From positions 5,940,001 to 5,972,000 of the forward strand of contig NZ_RSDW01000001.1 of assembly GCF_003945235.1 (NCBI RefSeq): a stretch of 32,000 bases of DNA. Direction: 5' to 3'. The translations under genes were made by a program, and so were the position numbers. A model generated the notes under the pieces. It saw only the letters and a program-made list of their open reading frames with translations, was not told the DNA's origin and ran no database searches. This DNA is from Edaphobacter aggregans (GTDB taxonomy: Bacteria; Acidobacteriota; Terriglobia; Terriglobales; Acidobacteriaceae). Below, in pieces: positions 1-10,286 of this stretch (the stretch's first letter is position 1; the number at the start of each line of letters is the position of its first letter).

Positions 1-751
1 TGGGCACCTGAAAGACGACACGCATAATGGTGAGAATGAGGCAGAGTTCTGCGAAGCCGAGAACGCCGTAGGGGATCATCTTGCCGACCATAAGGCCGAG
101 GGGAGCGACGGGAGTCATGGTGAGTTGCTCCAGTGTGCCGCGCTCGCGTTCGCGGACCAGGCTGAGGGCGATGAGCAGGATGATCATGACTTGCAGAAGA
201 ACGGCGATGAGGCCTGGCACGAAGAAGTTCGCCGAGCGAGTGGCGGGGTTGTAGAGGACGGATGGGCGCACCTCAATGGGCATCTGCGATGAACCGAGGA
301 TGCGGCGGAGGGATTGTTCGAGGGCGACTCCGGTAGAGGCATTGACGGCTTGTGCGGCGACGGTGGTGTCGGAGCCGTCGATGAGGACGAGGACGGTGGC
401 GGTTGCACCGCTTTGGAGTTGGCGGGCGTAGTCATAGGGAATTTTGATTGCGACGCGCGCTTTGCCTGCGCGCATGGCGGTGTACATGTCTGCGTTGGAT
501 TGAACGGTAACGGCGAGGCGGAAGGTGTCGGATGCCGCGAAGCTCTCGAGTAGCTGGCGGCTCTGCTGGGTGTGGGATTCATCAAGGACGACGGTTGGGA
601 TTTGCCTGATGTTGGTGTCGACTGCGAAGCCGAAGAGAAATAACTGGATGAGTGGGATGACGAGTGCGAAGAAGAGGGTACCGGGGTCGCGAACGATATG
701 GGTGAACTCTTTGCGGCAGACGGGCAGGAGACCGTAGAAAAGTGACTTCAT
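1..751 (-). CDS. ABC-2 type transporter permease, partial (3' end lies beyond the left window edge)
   Basis: Absent from the ORF track because it is open at the window edge. The reverse complement from 751 reads ATG AAG TCA... = [31 protein letters not shown]..., a typical N-terminus of ABC-2 membrane subunits. Its ATG overlaps the TGA of the upstream ATPase gene (ATGA, 748-751). The listed ORFs 184-585(-) and 314-553(+) are other-frame shadows. Confidence 0.8.
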
Positions 752-1677
752 TTCGCGGCCTCCATGATCTGGTAGGTCAGGGTGACGAAGACATCTTCGA
801 GCGAAGGCACAATGGGTTGGATCTTAGCTTGAGGGAACTGCGTGCGGAGGGAGTCCATCTTCGTGGTCTCAACGAGAGAGTGAATGGAGCGGCCGAAGAT
901 AGTGGCTTCGCGTACGCCGGGTTGTTTGCGCAATGCTGCCAGGATTGTGGAGGTGTCAGGCGTTTCGATCTCTACGCGTGATGTGCCGGCGGGATTGGCT
1001 TCGGGCAGATGCTGGAGTTCGCCGATGGTGCCGAGAGCGACCAGCTTTGACATGTAGATGTAGCCGACACGGCCGCAACGCTCGGCTTCGTCCATGTAGT
1101 GAGTGGTGACGAAGAAGGTGACGCCCTGTCCGGAGAGGAGGAAAAAAAGATCCCAGAGAGAGCGGCGTGCGACGGGGTCGATGCCGGCGGTGGGCTCGTC
1201 GAGGAAGACGACCTCAGGCGAATGGATGATGGCACAGCCGAGAGCGAGGCGCTGTTTCCAACCGCCGGAGAGAGCGTTGACTCGGCGGTGAAGGTAGGGC
1301 TGGAGGCCGGTGAGGGCGAGGATCTCCTGGATGCGCTGCGTCGCGCGGGGGCCGGTGATGCCGTAGACGCCGGAGTAGAAGCCGAGGTTCTCGGATACGG
1401 TGAGATCTTCGTAGAGGCCGAATTCTTGCGACATGTAGCCGACGTGCCGTTTGATTTCGGCGGCGTCTTTGCGGATGTCCATGCCGAGGATGGTGCCGGT
1501 ACCTTCGTTAGGTGGAATGAGTCCGCAGAGGGCTTTGATGATGGTGGTTTTGCCCGAGCCGTTGGGGCCGAGGAAGCCGAAGAGCTCTCCTTTGTTGATC
1601 TCGAAGGAGACGTCGCTGACTGCGGTGAAGTCTCCGAAGCGGATGGTGAGGTGGTCGGCGGTGATGACTGGAGTCAT
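748..1677 (-). CDS. ABC transporter ATP-binding protein
   Basis: 309-aa ORF with Walker [11 protein letters not shown]-loop GYMSQEF, ABC signature LSGGWKQRL, Walker [13 protein letters not shown] and H-loop TTHYM. ATGA start/stop overlaps with both neighbours (1674-1677 and 748-751). Confidence 0.95.
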
Positions 1678-2804
1678 TGCAGCCGCACCGTTGCGGACAT
1701 ACCGGATTTCAGGACGCCGTCTGGATTGTCAACGCGGACTTTGACACCAAAGACCTGATGCTGGCGGTCGTCGGGAGTCTGGACGTTTCGCGGAAGGAAC
1801 TCTGCCTGGGCGGCGATCTCCTGAATGTGGCCGGTGAAGGGACGTCCGTGAAGGGAGTCAACCTCGACGTGCGTGGATTGGCCAACACGGACCGCGGCGA
1901 GATCGGTTTCCGGAACGTAGACCTTGACCCAGAGCTGTGAGGATTCGAGCATGGTGACAACGATCCTTCCGGGGCCGACGAGGTCGCCGGTGCGCACGCT
2001 GACTGTCTGGACGATTCCGTCTGCAGGCGCGGAGAGCTCGGCTTCTTTCAACTGCACGTCGAGTTGATTGATGCGCGCCTGAGCCTCGTCCATCTTTGCA
2101 CGGCCAGAGTCGATATCCTCCTTGCGATAGCCGCGCTGCATAAGATCCGATGCAGCCTGTGCCTGGCGGTAGCGCTGCAGGGCCGCCTGGATATCTTCTT
2201 TGCGCGTGCCTGCCTGTAGAAGTGCGAGGCGCTGACGAAGCGATTCGGCCTTCTGGGCGGTTGCGTCGCGCGTTGCCTTTGCATTGTCGAATTGCTGGCG
2301 AGAGATGGTATCGCCACGAACGAGCGTCTGCATGCGTTCGAAGTTCGTTTGGGCGTTGATGGCGTCGGCGTTGGCGGCGGCGTATTCAGCTTGTGCCTGC
2401 TGGAGCTCCTGCGACCTTGGACCGTTTTGTGCAGCGTCGAGCATGGCGCGCTGCTCCTGTGCGGTAGCCTGTGCCTGGGCGATCTCTTCGGGGCGATAGC
2501 CGCGTTGCAGGCGATGGTAGTCAGCCTGGGCTTGTTCGAACTGCGCTTGCACCTGTGCGCGCTGGTCCTTGAGATCGTCGAACTCGAAGCGTACGAGAAT
2601 GGAGCCAGCTTTTACTGCCTGACCTTCTTCGACGAGAACGTCGGTCACGCGGCCGCCGATCTTCGAGCCGATCTGGATCTCGCGGGTTTCTATGGTGCCC
2701 GAGTAGACGAAGGAGTCTTTTGGATTTGTGCAGGAATGAATGAGCCATCCGGTGAGGACAAGTATTGCAAGGGCAGCGATTGCGAGAATGACTTTGCGTT
2801 TCAA
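1674..2804 (-). CDS. HlyD/YbhG-type membrane-fusion (periplasmic adaptor) protein
   Basis: N-terminal membrane anchor ([18 protein letters not shown]), a long Q/A/E/R-rich coiled-coil centre and a C-terminal beta-rich segment ([11 protein letters not shown]...[23 protein letters not shown]). I place the start at TTG 2804, which has GGAGGGG 5 nt upstream and a TTGA overlap with the TetR stop. The track's ATG at 2888 would overlap the TetR gene by 88 nt. Confidence 0.85.
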
Positions 2805-3400
2805 GCAATCCCCTCCATGCCGAGCTTCAAGCGGGCGCGCATGTTGGTAAGCAACCAGGCGCCGGGTTCCTCTTCGCGGATAAGCCACTCAAGAGTGGTT
2901 GCCATGTAGATGGCGAAGAGTGTCTCGGCAATGAGCTGAGGGGTGGCGGCGTTGCGGCGTGGAATGCGCTTGATGGCACTACTGAGTATGTTGATTGCTT
3001 CCTTGCGAGCCGCCATCATGGGGCCGTTAGTGACCTGCTGGAACCAGAGGCTGAGTAGCAGGCGTCGCGATTTGGCCGCGATCCGCGTGTTTTCGTCAGT
3101 TATGTCGAGAAAGAGTGCGATCACATCGTCGAATGTGAGCCTGTGACTGCCTTCACCGAATTGAGAGACGATTGTCTTCAGTTTTTCGACGCGGGTGCTG
3201 GCGATTTCACGAAGTATCAACTCCTTTTGCGGGAAGTAGTTGAAGAAGGTCGCTCGCGAGATGCCGACTGTGTCGCAGATCATCTCGACGGAGACGTCTT
3301 CGTATCCGTGAGCGGCGAAGAGTTCGAAGGCGACCCGGACGATCTCTGTTCGCGTGTAATGTTTCTGCTTTTCGCGCAACGAAAGTGTACTACGAACCAT
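2801..3400 (-). CDS. TetR/AcrR family transcriptional regulator
   Basis: 199-aa ORF with an N-terminal TetR-type HTH (GYEDVSVEMICDTVGISRATFFNYFPQKE). It is the first gene of the efflux operon, and a palindromic operator lies 3 nt upstream of its ATG. Confidence 0.9.
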   Translation of the reverse strand: MVRSTLSLREKQKHYTRTEIVRVAFELFAAHGYEDVSVEMICDTVGISRATFFNYFPQKELILREIASTRVEKLKTIVSQFGEGSHRLTFDDVIALFLDITDENTRIAAKSRRLLLSLWFQQVTNGPMMAARKEAINILSSAIKRIPRRNAATPQLIAETLFAIYMATTLEWLIREEEPGAWLLTNMRARLKLGMEGIA

Positions 3401-3749
3401 AACTTGGACTATAGTCCAACAATTCTCTATTCGTCAAAATTCTCTCTCCCTTCATCAAGAGATGCGGTAACCGAAGGGTAAACGTTTCTTGGCTCCATGC
3501 AATCCATATTGGTCGTGCAGCTATTCTCAGCTTCATCAGGTTACTAACGACATACTGATCCAGGTAGATGATTTTCTTGTGCAGCTTTGGCAGCGCGAAG
3601 CGATTCACCATGTCCCAGCAGTCCCGGCACAGTCTCGAATTGCTGTTACCGCTGATTGTGAGAACGCCAAGGGTTTCGTGCCCACACTTCGGGCAGGTCT
3701 TATACGGCGGCGAGATGAAGTCCCTGGGGTTGAACCTCGTTTCTGTCAT
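3390..3749 (-). CDS. Hypothetical zinc-ribbon protein, probably a 5' gene fragment (3'-truncated)
   Basis: From the internal ATG at 3749 the ORF reads MTETRFNPRDFISPPYKTCPKCGHETLGVL...LCRDCWDMV...KKIIYLDQYVVSNLMKL, with a CxxC...CxxC zinc ribbon. After about residue 70 the codons turn rare (aga, ata, cga). The reading frame then runs through the TetR operator and into the TetR start codon. The 69 residues upstream in the track ORF (start 3956) are not protein-like. Confidence 0.4.
   Translation of the reverse strand: MTETRFNPRDFISPPYKTCPKCGHETLGVLTISGNSNSRLCRDCWDMVNRFALPKLHKKIIYLDQYVVSNLMKLRIAARPIWIAWSQETFTLRLPHLLMKGERILTNRELLDYSPSYGS
3404..3419. promoter_or_regulatory. Perfect 16-bp palindrome TTGGACTATAGTCCAA, probable TetR operator
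   Basis: Read directly: the sequence at 3404-3419 equals its own reverse complement. It sits immediately upstream of the TetR start codon (3400), the usual place for an autoregulatory TetR operator. Confidence 0.6.
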
Positions 3750-3816
3750 TCTGGGGCTCTTTGGATAGCAGCTTGTCCGTAAAACTGTTTTCGATATTGG
3801 ACACTGTGAATTTATT

Positions 3817-3842
3817 TGTCCGATAATGTATGGTCCGCCGCT
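3817..3842 (+). repeat. IS end motif, copy A (TGTCCGATAATGTATGGTCCGCCGCT)
   Basis: Read directly. It shares TGTCCG, TAATG and the 13-nt core ATGGTCCGCCGCT with copy C in inverted orientation, and CCGATAAT / GGTCC / CCG / CGCT with copy B. Confidence 0.7.
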
Positions 3843-4072
3843 TGACTGCAAGGGTGAGTTTGGTCGAGAGACAAGTCTGCGGCAAGGTATTCGGCCTTTT
3901 GATGGAGCCGCGTGCTCCTGGCCAGGATGAGTTCCGCTGCGTATCCGTCCTAACAAGCCGAGCGGTCGGTGGGACCATTATCGGAAACAGGCTTCAGACA
4001 CGCCTTTTTGACTGTTCTTTCGTCTGTACTGTTCCTGTGCAGACTTCGTGGAAAGCTTATTTCTGCGATGTC
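3843..4072 (-). ncRNA. Candidate bridge/seek RNA region in the non-coding tail of the IS
   Basis: About 230 nt between the transposase stop and the terminal repeat has no credible ORF. It contains an internal copy of the end motif (3984-3961). It also has long-range complementarity (AAGTCTGC 4046-4039 with GCAGACTT 3880-3873) and a local hairpin GGAGC-ACGCG-GCTCC (3918-3904). The assignment rests on family knowledge; the extent and even the side of the gene are uncertain. Confidence 0.35.
3961..3984 (-). repeat. IS end motif, internal copy B (CCGATAATGGTCCCACCGACCGCT)
   Basis: Read directly on the minus strand. It is inverted relative to copy A, 118 nt away, so the transcript could pair B with the complement of A (blocks of 8+3+3+5 bp). 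Confidence 0.6.
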
Positions 4073-5104
4073 TTATGCCGCTGCTGTGTTGACAGCGGGT
4101 CTGTAATCTTCACCAGTCGACAGGACGGCCCATGCGATACGTGCGATCTTGTTGGCCATGGCCACGACCATCACGTTGCGTGGTGCTCTGGCTTCCAGTG
4201 CGTTCATCCATGCTCCGATCGGGAAGCGATCTCGCTTGATACGCATCGCCGCGGCGCGTGCGCCATGTATCAGGATCTTGCGCAGATAGATGTTGCCGCG
4301 CTTGCTGATGCCCAGCAGTCTGGCCCTGCCACCGGTCGAATACTGTCGCGGTACGAGGCCGAGCCATGCAGCAAAGTCTCGTCCCTTGCGGAAGGCTGCA
4401 CCGTTGCCGATGGCTGCCACGATAGCCGTCGCAACGATAGGCCCGATACCCGGTATCTGCCGAATACGGCGGCAAGCTGCGTCGCTATCGGCAATCTGTT
4501 CGAGCCTGTCGGTCAGTTCTTCAATCTGCTCTTCAACGGTCTTCCACTCGTCCCACAGGATACCAATGAGGTGGCGCATCATCGGAGTTAGCGCGTTGTC
4601 TGCGTTCTCGAGAACATCGGCCATAGCGGCCCTTAGCTTCGCCGGCTTCTGAGCAAACACCATACCGCGTTCTAGCAGGAAAGCTCTGATCTGGTTGATG
4701 ACTGCTGTTCGTCGCGATACCAGCCGATCACGAATCCGATGCATCGCCTGGAGATCGAGCTGGTCGTCCGTCTTGATCGGAACAAAGCGCATGTTCTTGC
4801 GCTCGACGGCTTCGGCTATGGCTTCCGCATCGACGAAGTCGTTCTTGTTGGACTTCACAAACGGCTTCACGAACTGCGCCGCGATCAGCCGCACGTCATG
4901 ACCCTGCTGCCGCAACGCTCGACCAAGAAAATGTGCACCGGAGCAGGCTTCCAGACCGATCAGAGAAGTCTGCAGGTTCGCCGTGAATGCCAGCAGCTGC
5001 TTCTGTGAAAACTTCTTCTTCACCAGCACCTTGCCCGATGCTCCCAGTGCGACAAAGTGAAACGTCGTCTTGCCCAGGTCAATGCCTACCGAACGTATCT
5101 GCAT
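4073..5104 (-). CDS. IS110 family transposase (DEDD recombinase)
   Basis: 343-aa ORF. The N-terminus MQIRSVGIDLGKTTFHFVALG...GLEACSGAHF...NDFVDAEAIAEA is RuvC-like DEDD. The C-terminus IPGIGPIVATAIVAAIGNGAAF...GLVPRQYSTGGRARLLGISKRGNIYLRKILIHGA is the helix-hairpin-helix / catalytic Ser region. RBS GAGGAGG lies 9 nt upstream of the ATG. Confidence 0.93.
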   Translation of the reverse strand: MQIRSVGIDLGKTTFHFVALGASGKVLVKKKFSQKQLLAFTANLQTSLIGLEACSGAHFLGRALRQQGHDVRLIAAQFVKPFVKSNKNDFVDAEAIAEAVERKNMRFVPIKTDDQLDLQAMHRIRDRLVSRRTAVINQIRAFLLERGMVFAQKPAKLRAAMADVLENADNALTPMMRHLIGILWDEWKTVEEQIEELTDRLEQIADSDAACRRIRQIPGIGPIVATAIVAAIGNGAAFRKGRDFAAWLGLVPRQYSTGGRARLLGISKRGNIYLRKILIHGARAAAMRIKRDRFPIGAWMNALEARAPRNVMVVAMANKIARIAWAVLSTGEDYRPAVNTAAA

Positions 5105-5161
5105 GTCGATGATCCTCCTCTGAAACCGCTGCTACTATCCTCCGCCTCAGCGGAGGGTTAC

Positions 5162-5197
5162 AGCGGCGGACCATCTCATTAGCCGACTATACGGACA
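5162..5197 (-). repeat. IS end motif, copy C (TGTCCGTATAGTCGGCTAATGAGATGGTCCGCCGCT)
   Basis: Read directly on the minus strand, 58-93 nt upstream of the transposase ATG. The 13-nt core is identical to copy A. Confidence 0.7.
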
Positions 5198-5417
5198 TAT
5201 GAACCTCCCGGCGGGCAACATCGTAAATACATCTGGCGCAACTATTCCTAGTCGGCACACCTGAATCGGAAACCCTCTCCCCCCTGATGTTGTGATACCC
5301 CCTGGTTCAAAACCGTCGGCAATTTCGGGGAAGCTACAACTTTTGGGGTACTGATCATTCATAGTGTGAGAAAACCGTTGGAATCACTTAAGTTTCAGTT
5401 AGAATCCGTTCGAACAT

Positions 5418-8400
5418 ATGAAGACCTGGTTACTGTCCCCCATTCGTCTTGGGCTCTATTGCGTTATTTTCTGCCTTGCAATTGTTGGATGTGGAGGCCC
5501 TGGCTCTTCACAGAACAGTTCGCCTCCGGTGGTTCCCCTCGCTATCCAGTCGATCACGCCGAGTAGCGTTCCGGTGGGAAGCGCGCCGCTTACAATTACG
5601 ATTTCAGGTACCGGCTTTACGACGTCGAGTCTCGTCACCGTGAACGGTACACAGGTGCCAACGGTGTACGTTAGCGCTGCGCAGTTGCAAGCAACGATCC
5701 CGGCCGGCCAGATTGCATCCGGTACCCAATTGCAGGTCGGAGTTGCCAATGGCGCTGGTAGCGCAACCGGGACGACCGTCACTCTGGTTGTCGATAATCC
5801 GGCGCCCGTGCTCCAAGGCGTTGCTCCTTCCACGATTGTTGCAGGCACATCGAGTGCGAGCCTGACGCTAACGGGCAGTGGCTTTGTTCCAACTTCTATC
5901 GCCAGCTTTAACGGGAGCACCAGGACGACCACGTTCACAAACGGGACACAGGTCACTGTATCTCTGACAGCCGCCGACCTGGCTGTCGCCGCAAACGCGA
6001 CCATTACGGTTACAAATTCTGCGCCTGGCGGTGGTACGTCGTCAGGGCAACAGTTGAACATCGTGAATCCGTTGCCGACGCTCAAGTTTGTCTCCCCCTC
6101 GAGCATTCCTGCGGGAAGTCAGGCAACCTCAATCGATATTGTAGGCACCAATTTTCTGCCGACGGCCATCGTATTCTGGAATAACACCACTCTGACGTCG
6201 ACATATATTAGTTCCACTGAGCTTAATGCGACGGTGCCAGCAACATCGCTCGCGACAGGAGCAACGGCTTCGGTTACTGTCGCGAACCCGGTGCCGGGAG
6301 GTGGCGTTTCTGCCCCGTTCAATCTTTCGGTCGTCAGTCCGAAGCCGGTACTCAACTCCATTCTGCCGGGGAACGTTTCTACCGGCAGCGCTTCAGCGAC
6401 GATTAATCTGACTGGATCTGGCTTCGAAACAAACTCAGTCGTTCAGTGGAATGGGTCTGCCCGGCCGACGACCTTCGTCAGCATGACGTCGCTGCAGGTG
6501 ACCCTTTCGTCGGCTGATCTGATGAACAGTGGCACGGGAAAGCTAACAGTCACGAATCCTGTACCCGGCGGAGGGTCAAGCTCCGCTAGCACACTGAACA
6601 TCACCTCTTTCCCGATACCTGCTATTCAAGCGATCACACTCTCGGCCCAAGCCGCGGCGGGATGCTCGACTATCCAGGCAACGATTACTGGGACTAACCT
6701 GGCGTCCGGGGACACCGTTCAGCTCAACGGTGTCTCTCTGAGGGCGAGCCAGATCTACGTCCCTACCGCTAACAATTATGGACTGCTCGTCTCGCTGCCT
6801 GCTTCGGCGATCCCCCAATCGGGGCCGCTCAACTTCACCGTGTCGAATAACTTCTTTTCGCCAGCCGTATCGGATCCATATACGCTTCCAGTTACTACCC
6901 CAGCAATCGTGGCGCTCTGCTCGTCGCCTGCGCCTGCAAACGTCTATGCAAACACAAGCTTCACGGTCTCTCTCACCGCGGCGGAGATCAATTCGACTAT
7001 AGTGCCGACCGTCTCGCTTGGCGCACTTCCCATTGGGATCACACTTACCTCTCCGGGGTGGATCTCCATCCCGACATCAGGGGTCGCGCTGACCTTCATG
7101 GCGTCGGCGAGTGTCGTACCTGGTACTTACTCGATTCCCATCACCGGCCAGGCCGGTTCACTCTCCCTCACTGGCTCTATTTCGTTGAACGTCCAGTCCG
7201 GCTTGCCGCCAAACTTTTTCTTCAGCCAACCCTTGTTCAGGGAACTCGGCGTGCCGATCGGAGGTTCGAATCAAATACAGTTCAATGCAATCGCTAATGG
7301 AGCTGATTACAACATCGTTCCGTCGATCAGCGGGCTTCCACCGGGAACGACTGCGACCGTTACACCATCGACCATCATTCCTGGCCAGTCGGTCACCGTG
7401 GTCATCACTGCCTCTTCAACGGCCCCTGCGAGTCGGAACGTTAGTGTAACGCTGACAGGCACACCGGTAGTGCCGGTTTCATCCTCACAGATCGCCTTCC
7501 TCGTTGATGTCACCCCCGCCCCCGGCTCGCTCCCAGGCAATCGTACCGACTTCGTCTCGATTGGTGGAACGCCGTACTCGGTGGTCTATGACCGGCCTAT
7601 GAACTTGATCTTCGCGAGCAATCCGTCATGGAACCGGATCGATATCATTTCGAACAAGACTCATCTACTCCAGCAGAGTATCGCCGTACGAGGACCGCAG
7701 GCGCTCGATGTCTCTCAAGATGGATCGACATTGTGGATCGGTACAAATTCACAGCAGGTCTTTGCGATGGACACGACGACTTTCGCCTTGACACGATACC
7801 AGCTGCCGCCTATTTCAGGGGGTAGCTGGGAGGATAATCAGTTACTGGCTCTGGCAGACGGTACGCTGCTGCTGGATGTATCTCCGGCAGCGGGGGATGG
7901 AATTTGGATCAATGCAGTCTGGACGCCGGGAACAAACCAAGTGACGGTGCTAGGGTCCACAGATTATTTCAATCTGCGAAGCGGGGACGGCACCAAGGCG
8001 TATGGCACTACCTATGCCTCCGGCTACACATCCGTCGTCTATAGTGTTGCGACCAAAGCATTGACGAACCTGCCTTTGATTGGCCAAGGGTACAACCTTG
8101 TTGCGGTGAACCAAGATGGTTCGCGACTCGTTGGCGGTGACAATGGCCTCTACGACGGCTCAGCGCAGCCGATAGGCAAGCTGCCGGCGTACTTGAGCAG
8201 TTTTTCCTTTCCGGAGTATGGCGCGACTGTGTTCAGTCCTGATGGAACGACGCTCTATCAGATCGCTTCCGGAGGAGGTTCATTTATCGCGACGATCGAT
8301 GTTGCGAGCCTCTCCTTGAAGGGGCTTGCTCCCGCTCTGGCGACGCTGCCGAATGGAGTGAGTGAAACTCCCGTCGAAACCAGCGGTGTGAGTGTGGACA

Positions 8401-10286
8401 ACACCGGCATGCTGATCGGAATACAGACTTACGGAGTCGGCTTTGACGACAGCACCTTCTTCCAAACCTTTGGTGCAAACACGTCTGAGCCCGGGCCTCC
8501 CGTATTATTGTCCCCGCGCGCTGGCCCGCTGAGCGGCGGAACTGTTTCGGGTCTTTATGGCGCATATGATCTCACTCCGGATGTTTGGTACGGACCGAAT
8601 CGCGGCACGGCGAGTTTAAGTGCGAGTAATACTTTGACAGTGACCTCGCCGCCAGGTAATGCAAATGGACCGGTGAATTTGAAGTACATCTACCCCAGTG
8701 GTGCGGAGGTCTTCACACCGCAGGCCTTCTCCTATTCGGCGTATCCGCAGTACTCCATTTTGTCGGGGGCATCGCCTGATGGCGGAGTAGCGGGACGCAT
8801 CTCTGGCTACGGCATGCCGGCCGATGCGAGTGGAGGGACAATCACCATTGGCGGTCGGGCGGCGACGATTACCACGACTGTTGGACAATATCCTCCGTAT
8901 ACGGGCGAGGCTTTCCCTTCGACCTATCTCGACTACACGATTCCCTCGGGCAACCCTGGCTTTGCCGATCTGGCCATCACCACGCCGATTGGTAACGGAG
9001 TTCTGCCCAAAGCAGTTTTCTACGCTAAGAGCGTTACGGACTACAACTCCGCCGATACATTCACCGACGTGTTATATGACTCTGTGCGACAACAGGTTTA
9101 TCTCTCGACAAATGATCATATCGATGTTTTTTCAATGATCTCAAACCAGTGGCTCACACCTTTGAAACCAGCAACGCTAGGGGCACAGTCGCAATTCAGG
9201 GGGTTGGCCCTCACTCCGGACGGAAGCCAGTTACTAGCGGCCAATATGCTGGATAACTCGCTAGGAGTGATTAGTCCAGACAATCCTTCGCAGACGTTTG
9301 CCATCGCGATCCCTGCTGCCCAGTCAGGGGGGACGGGCTGCGGGACCGGACCATTCTCGGTCTCTGCTCTGGCTGGTAATAGAGCATTTGTGACGAGCGG
9401 ACTTCCGACGGGGATCGGTGGGTGCCCTTACGAAAACACACTCTATGTTGCGAATCTTCAGACACGTACGATTGCGACAGCCGCTTCACTGTCGATTCCG
9501 CAGGAGCTTTACTGTGCGTCGTGGCCGCCAAACGCGGCAGGCACAACCGAGGCGTCGGCAGACGGAAGCCTCTCAATCGTAGGGACCTATCAAGGCGGGA
9601 CCTGCTTTTACTCCACAGTGAGCAATTCGTTCACCTACGGACATGCGGGTGCTCTGAACTACTATGGAGTCTCCATCGCGGGGGATGGCACTATCGCCGC
9701 AGTGGGGAACGCGTTTAGTGATGCATTAGGAAATATGGTGGGCAGTGTGGCTCGTCCAGCTGTGCTCTACAGCGGTATCACTGTAACTCCCTACCCGCTG
9801 AACAATTACCCTCCCAACACCTTGCAGAGGCCCAGGCTCAACGCGGCTGGAAGCCTTTATTACTGGGCCTACCCAAACTTCTTTGACATTATTGACGTTT
9901 CCACAGGCATCCTCCGTTTGCGATTTTCCCTTGCCGAGACAGTACAAAATGTCGAGACACCGATCGCAATCGACCAGGGCGGCCGGCAGATATTCCTGAT
10001 CACCGATAAAGGTCTCACTGTCGTCGATTTGGGATCTGCTCCTCTTTCGGTCGGTCATTTAAGCCTATCTACCGCCTCTGCCGGGACTCAGGTTCAGATT
10101 CGCGGAAGCGGCTTCCAATCGGGCATTACAGTCACTGTTGGAGGACAGGCCGCGACGGTTAGCTTTAACGATGAAAACACTCTGACGATCACGATTCCTG
10201 CCCAGTCTTCGGGAATCAAAGATTTAAAATTGACGAATAGTGATGGCTCGACTTACGTCTTGCAAAGCGCGATCGCGGTCCCGTGA
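5418..10286 (+). CDS. Giant surface lipoprotein with IPT/TIG (Ig-like) repeats and two beta-propeller regions
   Basis: 1622-aa ORF with a lipoprotein signal peptide (LGLYCVIFCLAIVGC, lipobox IVGC).
- About 5535-6893: five consecutive ~90-aa IPT/TIG-like repeats.
- To about 7530: two further Ig-like modules.
- About 7540-8470: a YVTN/YncE-like beta-propeller stretch (DGSTLWIGTNSQQVFAMD...).
- About 8497-9035: two IPT-like modules.
- About 9040-10040: a second propeller-like region.
- 10045-10283: a terminal IPT module (GTQVQIRGSGFQSGITVTVGGQAATV...). Confidence 0.88.
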   Translation: MKTWLLSPIRLGLYCVIFCLAIVGCGGPGSSQNSSPPVVPLAIQSITPSSVPVGSAPLTITISGTGFTTSSLVTVNGTQVPTVYVSAAQLQATIPAGQIASGTQLQVGVANGAGSATGTTVTLVVDNPAPVLQGVAPSTIVAGTSSASLTLTGSGFVPTSIASFNGSTRTTTFTNGTQVTVSLTAADLAVAANATITVTNSAPGGGTSSGQQLNIVNPLPTLKFVSPSSIPAGSQATSIDIVGTNFLPTAIVFWNNTTLTSTYISSTELNATVPATSLATGATASVTVANPVPGGGVSAPFNLSVVSPKPVLNSILPGNVSTGSASATINLTGSGFETNSVVQWNGSARPTTFVSMTSLQVTLSSADLMNSGTGKLTVTNPVPGGGSSSASTLNITSFPIPAIQAITLSAQAAAGCSTIQATITGTNLASGDTVQLNGVSLRASQIYVPTANNYGLLVSLPASAIPQSGPLNFTVSNNFFSPAVSDPYTLPVTTPAIVALCSSPAPANVYANTSFTVSLTAAEINSTIVPTVSLGALPIGITLTSPGWISIPTSGVALTFMASASVVPGTYSIPITGQAGSLSLTGSISLNVQSGLPPNFFFSQPLFRELGVPIGGSNQIQFNAIANGADYNIVPSISGLPPGTTATVTPSTIIPGQSVTVVITASSTAPASRNVSVTLTGTPVVPVSSSQIAFLVDVTPAPGSLPGNRTDFVSIGGTPYSVVYDRPMNLIFASNPSWNRIDIISNKTHLLQQSIAVRGPQALDVSQDGSTLWIGTNSQQVFAMDTTTFALTRYQLPPISGGSWEDNQLLALADGTLLLDVSPAAGDGIWINAVWTPGTNQVTVLGSTDYFNLRSGDGTKAYGTTYASGYTSVVYSVATKALTNLPLIGQGYNLVAVNQDGSRLVGGDNGLYDGSAQPIGKLPAYLSSFSFPEYGATVFSPDGTTLYQIASGGGSFIATIDVASLSLKGLAPALATLPNGVSETPVETSGVSVDNTGMLIGIQTYGVGFDDSTFFQTFGANTSEPGPPVLLSPRAGPLSGGTVSGLYGAYDLTPDVWYGPNRGTASLSASNTLTVTSPPGNANGPVNLKYIYPSGAEVFTPQAFSYSAYPQYSILSGASPDGGVAGRISGYGMPADASGGTITIGGRAATITTTVGQYPPYTGEAFPSTYLDYTIPSGNPGFADLAITTPIGNGVLPKAVFYAKSVTDYNSADTFTDVLYDSVRQQVYLSTNDHIDVFSMISNQWLTPLKPATLGAQSQFRGLALTPDGSQLLAANMLDNSLGVISPDNPSQTFAIAIPAAQSGGTGCGTGPFSVSALAGNRAFVTSGLPTGIGGCPYENTLYVANLQTRTIATAASLSIPQELYCASWPPNAAGTTEASADGSLSIVGTYQGGTCFYSTVSNSFTYGHAGALNYYGVSIAGDGTIAAVGNAFSDALGNMVGSVARPAVLYSGITVTPYPLNNYPPNTLQRPRLNAAGSLYYWAYPNFFDIIDVSTGILRLRFSLAETVQNVETPIAIDQGGRQIFLITDKGLTVVDLGSAPLSVGHLSLSTASAGTQVQIRGSGFQSGITVTVGGQAATVSFNDENTLTITIPAQSSGIKDLKLTNSDGSTYVLQSAIAVP
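5535..6893 (+). repeat. Protein-level tandem array of five ~90-aa IPT/TIG-like modules
   Basis: A recurrent pattern P.P.L..(I/V).P..(V/I).(A/T)GS....(L/I).(L/I).G.GF...S.V..NG......(F/Y)(V/I)S...L.(A/V)T(L/V)....L......(A/L).(V/I)TV.N(P/S).PGGG.S....L.(I/V). The repeats have diverged at DNA level, so this is not a nucleotide tandem repeat. Confidence 0.75.

What the first reader, a model, noticed from the sequence alone, without database searches (positions are those of the whole stretch)
3817..5197. IS110/IS1111-type element whose two flanks and internal non-coding tail carry the same guide-like motif (candidate bridge/seek-RNA system)
The ORF at 4073-5104(-) has the hallmarks of an IS110-family DEDD recombinase. 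Reading the flanks, I find one motif three times:
- Copy A, + strand, 3817-3842: TGTCCGATAATGTATGGTCCGCCGCT.
- Copy C, - strand, 5197-5162: TGTCCG / TATAGTCGGC / TAATGAG / ATGGTCCGCCGCT. Its 13-nt core is identical to A.
- Copy B, - strand, 3984-3961: CCGATAAT / GGTCC / CA / CCG / AC / CGCT.

A and C are inverted and bracket the gene, 58 nt upstream of the ATG and about 230 nt downstream of the stop. This resembles the sub-terminal inverted repeats described for the IS1111 branch. B lies inside the long non-coding tail.

IS110-family elements are known to encode a bridge/seek RNA in a non-coding end. Its loops pair with the element ends (donor) and with the target. An internal copy of the end motif within a structured non-coding tail is what a donor-binding loop would look like. 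This particular element, its RNA and its target specificity cannot be identified with any named IS from sequence alone. Exact termini are not determinable from one copy.
Basis: partly seen in the sequence, partly recalled or inferred. Interest (0 to 1): 0.7.

Follow-up and report, generated by a model that had tools for sequence, protein, structure and literature searches.

The report
IS1111-type insertion sequence with guide RNA
This is an intact 1,355-bp mobile element of the already described IS110/IS1111 kind, which carries its own small guide ("bridge" or "seek") RNA to choose where it inserts; it is a clean new example, not a new type of system.

Summary
The three motif copies are in the sequence exactly as written. 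Comparison with 66 complete related elements, mostly from Acidobacteriaceae, plus one 99.6% identical metagenome copy, fixes the element at window 3826-5180 on the minus strand.

Its parts are:
- a 76-nt left end with a 13-bp subterminal inverted repeat;
- a 343-aa IS110-family DEDD transposase;
- a 247-nt 3' non-coding region holding a conserved RNA with two internal loops;
- the right inverted repeat followed by ACAT.

The details are not:
- The TGTCCG parts of copies A and C lie outside the element. They are the two arms of the REP-like palindrome that was hit.
- Copy B is not the donor loop. It sits in the target-binding loop and is complementary to the right flank plus the last bases of the element.
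- The segment that reads the left flank lies 15 nt further on (3955-3961).
- The donor-binding loop lies at 3884-3933.

Guide segments track the flanks across 37 distinct guide pairs (0 of 5000 permutations do as well). Fourteen base pairs show compensatory changes.

Transcription, circle formation and activity are inferred, not shown. Verdict: new member of a known kind, of moderate to low interest.

The parts
3826..5180 (-). The whole insertion sequence, 1355 bp. The last two bases, AT (3827-3826), are the right-junction counterpart of the CT at 5182-5181.
   Evidence: BLASTN homology to 60+ loci stops at about 5188 and about 3820. The end motifs were found, with at most 3 mismatches, at element-length spacing in 66 elements. 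A 99.6% identical copy at another site (L081) diverges from the window right after the shared target bases. The element occurs once in the window.
5181..5187 (-). Left target half-site GTCGG + CT, outside the element. It is read by the left-target guide.
   Evidence: Identical in L081, L005, L006 and L019, which carry the same guide. Guide positions 3-9 match the reconstructed target at 91-100% per position.
5192..5197 (+). CGGACA, the outer arm of the target palindrome. This is the 'TGTCCG' of copy C and is not part of the element.
   Evidence: It differs in L081 (CCCGCA) although the elements are 99.6% identical. It forms the 6-bp stem TGTCCG/CGGACA in the reconstructed target.
5175..5180 (-). 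Left terminal extension AATGAG. Its AAT would form the second half of a -10 box in the circle.
   Evidence: Conserved at the start of all 66 elements (AATGAG, or AATGGA in one clade). It is matched by the right-donor guide.
5162..5174 (-). Left subterminal inverted repeat ATGGTCCGCCGCT.
   Evidence: I2, 13 nt, 100% complementary. Conserved across loci.
5126..5169 (-). Stem-loop in the 5' untranslated leader. Its outer arm overlaps the left inverted repeat.
   Evidence: I1, 20-nt arms, 75% complementary. A hairpin at the same place with different sequence is visible in other lineages. Not tested formally.
5113..5118 (-). Ribosome-binding site GGAGGA, 8 nt before the ATG.
   Evidence: Read from the sequence. 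GGAGGATCATCG is conserved upstream of the ATG in all loci shown.
4073..5104 (-). Transposase/recombinase gene, 343 aa. Candidate catalytic residues are D9, E52, D89, D92 and T257, the last in GLVPRQYSTG.
   Evidence: PF01548 + PF02371. NF033542 'IS110 family RNA-guided transposase', 339.9 bits against a cut-off of 140, covering profile positions 2-342 of 343. The alignment to IS621 (8wt6) places T257 opposite the IS621 serine of YESG. The GL-P----S/TG motif is described in PMC11187229.
3873..4046 (-). Conserved non-coding RNA domain. The outer stem pairs AAGTCT (4046-4041) with AGACTT (3878-3873).
   Evidence: Alignment A1. Of 37 proposed pairs, 96.7% of cells are paired and 14 pairs show changes on both sides, against 2-5 in slid controls. 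MFE -60.2 kcal/mol, z = -2.2.
3872..4006 (-). Two-loop core of the RNA: the target-binding loop followed by the donor-binding loop.
   Evidence: It is the only hit of covariance model R1 in the window (128.5 bits). The model also finds full-length hits in relatives left out of the model, including Bradyrhizobium at 66-71 bits.
3976..3985 (-). Right-target guide plus junction bases, TCCGATAATG. This is the meaningful part of copy B. [quoted passage not shown]
   Evidence: I4, 10 nt, 100%. The segment changes with the right flank across 41 distinct guides: longest run 5.85 against 3.61 when permuted, 0 of 3000. The order 'top-strand match 5' of bottom-strand match' is as reported for IS1111 seekRNAs (PMC11187229).
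3964..3976 (-). Hairpin inside the target loop, GGTC-CCACC-GACC. This is the 'GGTCC ... CCG' part of copy B.
   Evidence: Helix 5; two of its pairs show compensatory changes (GGTT/AACC, GGCC/GGCC).
3955..3961 (-). Left-target guide TCGGCTT. It is identical to the top strand of the target, TCGG-CT-T, and so would pair with the bottom strand.
   Evidence: 4.6 of 5 variable positions match the element's own left flank against 2.3-2.5 when permuted (0 of 5000). Position 9 matches the first base of the right flank in 94% of cases.
3927..3931 (-). Right-donor guide CTCAT, complementary to ATGAG of the left end. It extends to 8 nt in relatives.
   Evidence: L020 has CATCTCAT against ATGAGATG. The L060 clade has CATTCCAT against its own left end ATGGAATG, changed on both sides.
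3904..3918 (-). Hairpin inside the donor loop, GGAGC-ACGCG-GCTCC. It is flanked by the stem GGCC 3920-3923 / 3893-3896.
   Evidence: Helices 7 and 8; the closing pair of helix 8 has 18 sequences changed on both sides.
3884..3890 (-). Left-donor guide ATACCTT. Relatives have ATACATT, identical to the right end ATACAT plus the next base. The C at 3886 is a change private to this lineage.
   Evidence: 46 of the 47 other aligned sequences have ATACAT; L045 has ATATAT. Bradyrhizobium relatives have the right end CCATAGAT and the guide GATAGATT. L081 shares the C.
3846..3851 (-). TTGCAG, a candidate -35 box. It would be completed by CAT|AAT after 17 nt only when the ends are joined in a circle.
   Evidence: TTGCNN-17-CATAAT in 62 of 66 elements, with a spacing of 17 in all 66. 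TTGC is invariant in A1. Junction promoters are reported for IS1111-type elements (PMC11187229) and ISPpu10 (PMC12288879). Function inferred.
3830..3842 (-). Right subterminal inverted repeat AGCGGCGGACCAT.
3826..3829 (-). Right terminal extension ACAT.
   Evidence: ACAT in 63 elements, ACAA in 3.
3819..3825 (-). Right target half-site TATCGGA, outside the element. It is read by the right-target guide.
   Evidence: Shared as TATCGG by L081 at a different locus. Unoccupied sites elsewhere read GCCGACT immediately followed by T(A/C/T)TCGG-like sequence.
3817..3822 (+). TGTCCG, the other arm of the target palindrome. This is the start of copy A and is not part of the element.

Best explanation
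Window 3826-5180 (minus strand) is a complete IS110-family insertion sequence of the IS1111 type. It sits in a REP-like palindrome, TGTCCGATA|AGCCGACTATACGGACA on the plus strand, between two divergently transcribed genes.

It encodes a DEDD-type recombinase. Downstream of the gene lies a guide RNA of about 135-175 nt with two internal loops.

The first loop reads the target:
- Its 3' segment (3955-3961) is identical to the top strand of the left half-site, so it pairs with the bottom strand.

The second loop reads the element's own ends once they are joined:
- CTCAT (3927-3931) pairs with the left end.
- ATACCTT (3884-3890) corresponds to the right end.

By analogy with IS621 and with ISEc11/ISPa11, the likely cycle is as follows. 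The element excises as a circle. Joining the ends creates a promoter, TTGCAG-17-CATAAT, that drives the recombinase gene and the RNA behind it. The recombinase-RNA complex brings the circle junction and a matching target together and exchanges strands at or next to a shared T. No target duplication longer than 1-2 nt results.

Shown here:
- the boundaries of the element;
- protein family membership;
- conservation and covariation of the RNA structure;
- covariation of the guide segments with the flanks, and more limited covariation with the ends.

Inferred:
- that the RNA is transcribed and bound by the recombinase;
- the circle and its promoter;
- the chemistry of strand exchange and the exact crossover position.
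For: Protein:
- PF01548 + PF02371.
- NF033542 at 339.9 bits against a cut-off of 140.
- 42-43% identity over 96% of the length to IS4321/IS5075 transposases.
- The C-terminal domain aligns to IS621 (8wt6), with T257 opposite the IS621 serine of YESG.

Boundaries:
- 66 complete elements share AATGAG... and ...CATACAT, with unrelated sequence beyond.
- A 99.6% identical copy in another locus shares only AGTCGGCT| and |TATCGG outside the element.
- Unoccupied palindromes read ...GCCGACT directly followed by T(A/C/T)TCGG-like sequence.

RNA structure:
- 37 pairs, 96.7% of cells paired.
- 14 pairs changed on both sides, against 2-5 in slid controls.
- A covariance model finds one hit in the window and full-length hits in held-out relatives as far as Bradyrhizobium.

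Target guides:
- Left guide: 4.6 of 5 variable positions match the element's own flank, against about 2.4 when permuted (0 of 5000).
- Right guide: longest run 5.85 against 3.61 when permuted (0 of 3000).
- The order and strandedness agree with published IS1111 seekRNAs (PMC11187229) and with the LTG/RTG definition for bridge RNAs (PMC11208160).

Donor guides:
- The L060 clade changes both its left end (ATGGAATG) and its guide (CATTCCAT).
- Bradyrhizobium changes both its right end (ATAGAT) and its guide (ATAGATT).

Junction promoter:
- The 17-nt spacing is kept in 66 of 66 elements.
Against: - There are no expression data, and Rfam 15 has no matching family.
- No sigma-70-like promoter for the RNA was found on the minus strand in the integrated copy.
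- Covariation for the donor loop rests on only two clade-level changes, because the ends are almost invariant.
- In the window the right-donor guide pairs with only 5 nt.
- The left-donor guide of this lineage differs from its own right end at one position (ATACCT against ATACAT).
- The two junctions always differ at the first 'core' position: C or T at the left, A at the right. This does not fit a simple identical-dinucleotide core as in IS621.
- The predicted -35 box matches the consensus at only 3 of 6 positions.
Confidence: 0.85

Rival explanations
1. The element is of this kind but this copy is a dead relic that can no longer move.
For: - There is only one copy in the 32-kb window.
- The left-donor guide carries a change at 3886 that none of the other 47 aligned sequences has.
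- In the window the right-donor guide matches the left end over only 5 nt.
Against: - The ORF is full length and matches the NCBIfam profile from end to end.
- Both ends and all eight helices are intact.
- A copy differing at 6 positions, which shares the same guide change, sits at a different site in a metagenome contig. The lineage therefore moved recently with this guide.
Confidence: 0.12
2. One reading: copy B is the donor-binding loop, an internal copy of the end motif that pairs with the element ends. A and C are then the sub-terminal repeats, including TGTCCG.
For: B shares CCGATAATG and GGTCC with A. The last four of those nine bases (AATG) do correspond to the last bases of the element.
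Against: - CCGAT in A is flank, not element. In L081 and in the 65 other loci the flank differs beyond the target half-site.
- Across lineages the B-equivalent segment changes with the right flank while the ends stay constant.
- GGTC/GACC is a hairpin stem with compensatory changes.
- A separate loop at 3884-3933 carries the matches to both ends, and these covary with the ends in two diverged clades.
Confidence: 0.03
3. The conserved 3' region works as DNA, for example as protein-binding sites or a transposition enhancer, and not as an RNA guide. On this view the resemblance to the flanks arises because the target resembles the ends.
For: - No transcript has been shown.
- The donor junction CATACAT|AATGAG and the subterminal repeats are themselves palindromic.
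Against: - Compensatory changes in 14 pairs, including G-U intermediates, point to a folded single strand.
- The guide segments follow lineage-specific targets such as GGCGTT, GGCGAT, GAACTT, ACGTCC and ACCGAAA, which bear no resemblance to the constant ends.
- Closely analogous regions in ISEc11, ISPa11 and ISKpn4 yield RNAs that co-purify with the transposase (PMC11187229).
Confidence: 0.03

Closest known systems
IS1111-family elements with seekRNA (ISEc11, ISPa11, ISKpn4, ISPst6; Siddiquee et al. 2024, PMC11187229)
   Same: - A transposase of 330-350 aa with the GL-P----S/TG motif (here TG).
- Subterminal inverted repeats with short terminal extensions.
- The long non-coding region lies downstream of the gene.
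- The RNA segment complementary to the top strand lies 5' of the one complementary to the bottom strand.
- Insertion at a fixed position in a folded or palindromic target (ISPa11 inserts in REP).
- A promoter expected only at the circle junction.
   Different: - No sequence-level comparison with those elements could be run here.
- The host clade differs (Acidobacteriaceae).
- The published short seekRNA (82-96 nt) was described by its target matches only. Here a second loop matching both element ends is also evident, as in the bridge-RNA description.
IS621 bridge RNA system (Durrant et al. 2024, PMC11208160; Hiraizumi et al. 2024, PMC11208158)
   Same: - One RNA with two internal loops.
[quoted passage not shown]
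- The bases next to the right-target guide match the last bases of the donor's left half, like the handshake guides.
- The natural target is a REP element.
- DEDD residues plus a hydroxyl nucleophile in the C-terminal domain.
   Different: - The RNA lies 3' of the gene instead of 5'.
- The order of segments within each loop is reversed.
- The inverted repeats are long (13 bp).
- The protein is only distantly related: only the C-terminal half aligns, E = 8.6e-15.
- The nucleophile position holds Thr, not Ser.
- The two junctions do not carry an identical dinucleotide (CT at the left, AT at the right).
IS4321 / IS5075 (Partridge & Hall 2003, cited in PMC11208160)
   Same: These are the closest named relatives found: 42-43% amino-acid identity over 96% of the protein. 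They have subterminal inverted repeats and insert site-specifically into an inverted-repeat target.
   Different: Their target is different (the terminal repeats of Tn21-family transposons). They are carried on enterobacterial plasmids. Their RNA was not compared here.
ISPpu10 / ISPpu9 of Pseudomonas putida (PMC12288879)
   Same: They insert in REP sequences and form circular intermediates. ISPpu10 forms a strong hybrid promoter at the circle junction.
   Different: ISPpu9 does not need its downstream small RNA and has a native promoter. No orphan RNA copies were found here.

Membership tests
IS110 family, IS1111 group (insertion sequence) | N-terminal DEDD (RuvC-like) transposase domain | tested here: met
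   PF01548, E = 2.6e-22, residues 6-144. D9, E52, D89 and D92 sit in the expected motifs GIDLGK, GLEA and NDFVDA (read from the sequence; D89/D92 align to the IS621 TDTVDA motif).
IS110 family, IS1111 group (insertion sequence) | C-terminal PF02371 domain with the GL-P----S/TG motif | tested here: met
   PF02371, E = 1.1e-24. The sequence is GLVPRQYSTG, with T257 aligned to the IS621 serine of YESG. The motif is defined in PMC11187229.
IS110 family, IS1111 group (insertion sequence) | Curated family score (NCBIfam NF033542, IS110 family RNA-guided transposase) | tested here: met
   339.9 bits against a cut-off of 140, covering profile positions 2-342 of 343.
IS110 family, IS1111 group (insertion sequence) | Subterminal inverted repeats of 7-17 bp, set in from the termini | tested here: met
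   A 13-bp perfect repeat lies 6 nt from the left end and 4 nt from the right end.
IS110 family, IS1111 group (insertion sequence) | The longer non-coding region lies downstream of the transposase gene | tested here: met
   247 nt downstream (4072-3826) against 76 nt upstream (5180-5105).
IS110 family, IS1111 group (insertion sequence) | Transposase related over its full length to IS1111-group transposases | tested here: met
   42-43% identity over residues 6-334 to IS4321/IS5075. IS621, from the IS110 group, aligns only over residues 178-334.
IS110 family, IS1111 group (insertion sequence) | Site-specific insertion without a conventional target duplication | tested here: met
   Independent insertions share the half-sites. 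Unoccupied sites equal the left flank joined directly to the right flank, and only a single T is ambiguous.
IS110 family, IS1111 group (insertion sequence) | Circular intermediate with a promoter formed at the junction | not testable with these tools
   Only a prediction is possible: TTGCAG-17-CAT|AAT, with the spacing kept in 66 of 66 elements.
Bridge RNA / seekRNA | Conserved folded non-coding RNA in the long non-coding end, with internal loops | tested here: met
   Eight helices, 96.7% of cells paired, 14 pairs with compensatory changes against 2-5 in controls. The covariance model is specific.
Bridge RNA / seekRNA | One loop carries two segments matching opposite strands of the two target half-sites, and they change with the target | tested here: met
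   (0 of 5000 and 0 of 3000 permutations) and the second insertion L081.
Bridge RNA / seekRNA | A second loop carries two segments matching the joined element ends (donor) | tested here: met
   The consensus guide ATACAT(T) corresponds to the right end ATACAT; this lineage reads ATACCTT. CTCAT (up to CATCTCAT) is complementary to the left end ATGAG(ATG). Both change together with the ends in the L060 clade and in Bradyrhizobium. The support is thinner than for the target loop because the ends hardly vary.
Bridge RNA / seekRNA | The RNA is transcribed, binds the recombinase and is required for transposition | not testable with these tools
   No expression or biochemical data. No minus-strand promoter was found by consensus scan in the integrated copy.
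Bridge RNA / seekRNA | An identical core dinucleotide in target and donor, covered by all four guides (IS621 definition) | tested here: not met
   The left junction is YT and the right junction is AT (AA in 3) in all 66 elements. In the window the right-donor guide does not reach the junction. This separates the element from IS621-type bridge RNAs in detail, but not from the IS1111 seekRNA class.
Any Rfam family | Match to a curated covariance model | tested here: not met
   No match with E up to 10 in 3300-5800.

The most novel reading that the evidence does not exclude
In this clade the crossover does not use an identical core dinucleotide in donor and target.

- All 66 elements keep C or T at the left junction and A at the right junction, next to one shared T.
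- The window's lineage has moved while its left-donor guide reads CT and its right end reads AT.

This could mean either a one-base overlap or a first core position that tolerates a mismatch and is always resolved in favour of the top strand. That would be a looser rule than the one described for IS621.

In addition, sister lineages seem to reach the same palindrome on opposite strands through two changes in the left-target guide.
Probability: 0.25. Interest if true: 0.45.

Novelty: new member of a known kind. Interest (0 to 1): 0.3.

Why it matters
RNA-guided IS110/IS1111 recombinases are being developed as programmable DNA-insertion tools, so well-resolved natural examples help to define the rules.

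This clade offers 37 naturally different guide pairs on one conserved scaffold. It shows clear target and donor loops in the less studied 3'-RNA (IS1111) arrangement. It also shows a consistent difference between the two junctions that bears on how strict the core rule is.

For annotation of this genome it simply marks a mobile element, not a host gene or regulator, inserted in a REP-like palindrome between a small Cys-rich ORF and a large IPT/TIG surface protein gene. Nothing here would surprise a specialist.

Tried and rejected
- Rfam 15 scan of 3300-5800 at E up to 10: no hit. No published bridge or seekRNA model was available to scan with, so I built my own (R1).
- RNAalifold on the full 3' region paired the 5' GTCTGC with GCGGAC inside the right inverted repeat instead of with GCAGAC. 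I kept the GCAGAC pairing because the neighbouring pair covaries (A-U / G-U / G-C). The alternative is not excluded.
- The single-sequence MFE fold pairs CAGG with CCUU inside the left-donor guide. I rejected this because it is not conserved.
- A search for a second, unoccupied copy of this lineage's exact target in the window found none. A search for further TGTCC...GGACA palindromes found only the neighbour at 3774-3803 and one probably chance match.
- A consensus promoter scan found no minus-strand promoter for the RNA. It found only a plus-strand site across the right junction.
- A fixed-register comparison of the right-target guide gave a weaker signal (4.7 of 8 against 3.3), because the guide length varies. 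Allowing the register to shift in the observed and permuted sets alike gave the cleaner test.
- I considered a TA or a CT/AT dinucleotide as the duplicated core. Neither fits all loci, so the crossover is left as 'at or next to the shared T'.
The one metagenome scan went to finding a second copy of this lineage, and it succeeded.
Full report
**Observation**

The three copies are present exactly as written.
- The repeat finder reports the 13-nt perfect inverted repeat ATGGTCCGCCGCT at 3830-3842 / 5162-5174.
- It also reports a 10-nt perfect inverted repeat at 3819-3828 / 3976-3985, which is copy A against copy B.
- On this sequence alone the first is uncommon (20 of 1000 shuffles). The second is not (217 of 1000).
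- The ORF 4073-5104(-) carries PF01548 and PF02371. It scores 339.9 bits on NCBIfam NF033542, 'IS110 family RNA-guided transposase', against a cut-off of 140.

**Boundaries**

A scan of one genome per species returned 80 loci encoding relatives. Most are from Acidobacteriaceae, with a few from Bryobacteraceae and Bradyrhizobium.
- BLASTN homology to the window stops near 5188 on the gene-upstream side and near 3820 on the downstream side.
- 66 elements are complete: the window copy and 65 loci. In gene orientation they begin AATGAG-ATGGTCCGCCG and end CGGCGGACCAT-ACAT, with unrelated DNA outside.
- One metagenome contig (L081, Ga0210388_10058275) holds a copy that differs from the window's element at 6 positions and sits at a different locus.
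- Outside the element the two copies share only AGTCGGCT on the left and TATCGG on the right.
- Unoccupied palindromes in the flanks of other loci read ...AAGCCGACT directly followed by T(A/C/T)TCGG-like sequence. That equals the left flank joined to the right flank with nothing in between.

The element is therefore window 3826-5180, 1355 bp. One T is ambiguous, because the left flank and the element both end in T.

It follows that the TGTCCG of copy A (3817-3822) and of copy C (5192-5197), and the TATAGTCGGCT of copy C, are flank. Rejoined, the flanks give TGTCCGATA|AGCCGACTATACGGACA on the plus strand. This is a small palindrome with a 6-bp outer stem. A second palindrome of the same style lies at 3774-3803. 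Insertion into REP-like palindromes is typical of this family (ISPa11, IS621, ISPpu9/10; PMC11187229, PMC12288879).

**Family**

- The 13-bp repeats lie 6 and 4 nt inside the ends.
- The long non-coding region (247 nt) is downstream of the gene.
- The protein is 343 aa with GLVPRQYSTG, the GL-P----TG form.
- It is 42-43% identical over 96% of its length to the IS4321/IS5075 transposases.
- IS621 aligns only over the C-terminal half.

These are the features that PMC11187229 and PMC11208160 use to define the IS1111 group.

**The RNA**

The last ~225 nt are conserved across all lineages. I propose eight helices:
- an outer stem, 4046-4041 with 3878-3873;
- a small hairpin;
- a basal stem and a CCU/AGG stem enclosing loop 1, which contains a hairpin (3976-3964);
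- a basal stem and a GGCC/GGCC stem enclosing loop 2, which contains a hairpin (3918-3904).

On 48 distinct sequences, 96.7% of cells form standard pairs. Fourteen of the 37 pairs have changes on both sides, against 2-5 when partners are slid by 1-3 columns. No shuffle out of 500 reaches the observed values.

A covariance model of the 135-nt two-loop core finds exactly one hit in the window (3872-4006, 128.5 bits). It also finds full-length hits in relatives that were not used to build it, including five Bradyrhizobium loci at 66-71 bits. Rfam has no matching family.

**Loop 1 reads the target**

The 3' side of loop 1 (window TCGGCTT, 3961-3955) is identical to the last six bases of the left flank plus the first base of the right flank.
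- Per-position agreement is 91-100% across 65 insertions.
- Position 9 agrees with the right flank in 94% of cases but with the element's first base in only 32%.
- This independently supports the reconstruction in which the target is the left flank joined to the right flank.
- Over the five variable positions, the element's own flank matches 4.6 of 5, against 2.3-2.5 after permutation. None of 5000 permutations reaches this, also when one representative per guide pair is used (37 pairs).

- Across 41 distinct guides the longest run against the element's own junction averages 5.85, against 3.61 permuted (0 of 3000).
- Against flank sequence only it averages 5.24, against 3.21.
- Examples: CGAG goes with flank CTCG (L028), ACGT with ACGT (L012), CCGAAA with TTTCGG (L060).

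The order (top-strand match first, bottom-strand match second) is the one reported for IS1111 seekRNAs (PMC11187229). The strand assignment is that of RTG and LTG in PMC11208160.

The extra AUG after the flank-complementary part matches the last bases of the element. This corresponds to the handshake guide next to the RTG in IS621, which pairs with the donor top strand after exchange (PMC11208158).

Copy B therefore consists of the right-target guide, these junction bases and the 5' arm of the loop hairpin. Its resemblance to copy A exists because A is the right junction.

**Loop 2 reads the ends**

- On the 3' side, 46 of the 47 other aligned sequences have ATACAT(T), identical to the right end ATACAT plus the next base (L045 has ATATAT).
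- On the 5' side they have (CAT)CTCAT, complementary to ATGAG(ATG) of the left end.
- The ends barely vary, so covariation is limited, but it is present.
  - The L060 clade has the left end AATGGAATGG and the guide CATTCCAT.
  - Bradyrhizobium elements have the right end CCATAGAT and the guide GATAGATT.
- In the window the left-end match is only CTCAT (3931-3927).
- The right-end guide reads ATACCTT, a change at 3886 that L081 shares. The lineage has therefore moved with it.

**Junction promoter (inferred)**

Joining the ends gives TTGCAG-N17-CAT|AAT.
- The 17-nt spacing holds in 66 of 66 elements, and TTGCNN/CATAAT in 62.
- TTGC is invariant.
- No minus-strand promoter is seen in the integrated copy.
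- This agrees with the statement in PMC11187229 that the only promoter seen in these elements is the one formed in the circle.

**What does not fit neatly**

- In all 66 elements the left junction reads C/T-T|AATG and the right junction A-T| (A-A in three). There is no identical dinucleotide at both junctions, unlike the CT core of IS621.
- The crossover may involve only the shared T. Alternatively, a mismatch at the first position may be tolerated and resolved one way. Sequence alone cannot decide this.

**Verdict**

This is a complete, probably active IS1111-type element with a bridge/seek RNA.
- The reading of the three 'copies' is not: two of them are half flank, and B belongs to the target loop.
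- The kind of system has been known since 2024, and bridge RNAs were predicted in 93% of the IS1111 elements listed in ISfinder (PMC11208160).
- This is therefore a new member, with some useful natural variation.

Noticed in passing
window 5126-5169 (-): A stem-loop lies in the leader between the left inverted repeat and the ribosome-binding site. Its outer arm overlaps the repeat. Other lineages have a hairpin at the same place with different sequence, for example CACCTGC-GCGG-GCAGGTTG.
   Followed up: partly
window 3774-3803 (+): A second REP-like palindrome, TGTCCGTAAAACTGTTTTCGATATTGGACA, lies 13 nt from the occupied one. The intergenic region holds a small cluster of such units.
   Followed up: partly
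window 3798-3827 (+): A promoter-like site, TGGACA-18-GATAAT (10 of 12), spans the right junction and points into the element, antisense to the guide RNA. About one such site is expected by chance in this region.
   Followed up: no
window 3886 (-); L081: There is a lineage-private A-to-C change in the left-donor guide (ATACCTT; 46 of the 47 other aligned sequences have ATACATT, L045 has ATATATT). It makes the guide read CT like the left junction, while the right end still reads AT. The near-identical metagenome copy at another site shares it.
   Followed up: partly
window 3817-3825 + 5181-5197; L004, L008, L010 flanks: The window's lineage (left-target guide TCGGCT) and the majority lineage (CCGACT) seem to insert into the same palindrome, CGATAA-GCCGAC-TTATCG, on opposite strands. 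The two guides differ at two positions.
   Followed up: partly
all 66 elements: The base before the shared T is always C or T at the left junction and A at the right junction. The two junctions never carry the same dinucleotide.
   Followed up: partly
L041 (4148-4282 + and 5595-5729 -), L044, L026: Some loci hold two copies of the element in opposite orientation within a few kb. Both have intact RNAs by the covariance model.
   Followed up: no
L074, L077-L080 (Bradyrhizobium): Relatives at 52-53% protein identity in Alphaproteobacteria keep the same architecture: ends AATGGCATGGACCACGCCCGC ... GCGGGCGTGGTCCATAGAT, a junction TTGCAA-17-GATAAT, and the same RNA fold. In L077 and L078 the flanks look like the two halves of another transposase-like gene.
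   Followed up: partly
window 3390-3749 (-): A 119-aa ORF with CPKC...CRDC cysteine pairs starts 76 nt from the right end of the element. It has no Pfam or NCBIfam match.
   Followed up: partly
window 748-3400 (-) and 5418-10286 (+): The neighbours are a TetR-family regulator, a HlyD-type membrane-fusion protein and an ABC ATPase on the minus strand, and a 1622-aa protein with repeated IPT/TIG domains on the plus strand. The element sits in the divergent intergenic region, 237 nt upstream of the latter's start codon.
   Followed up: partly
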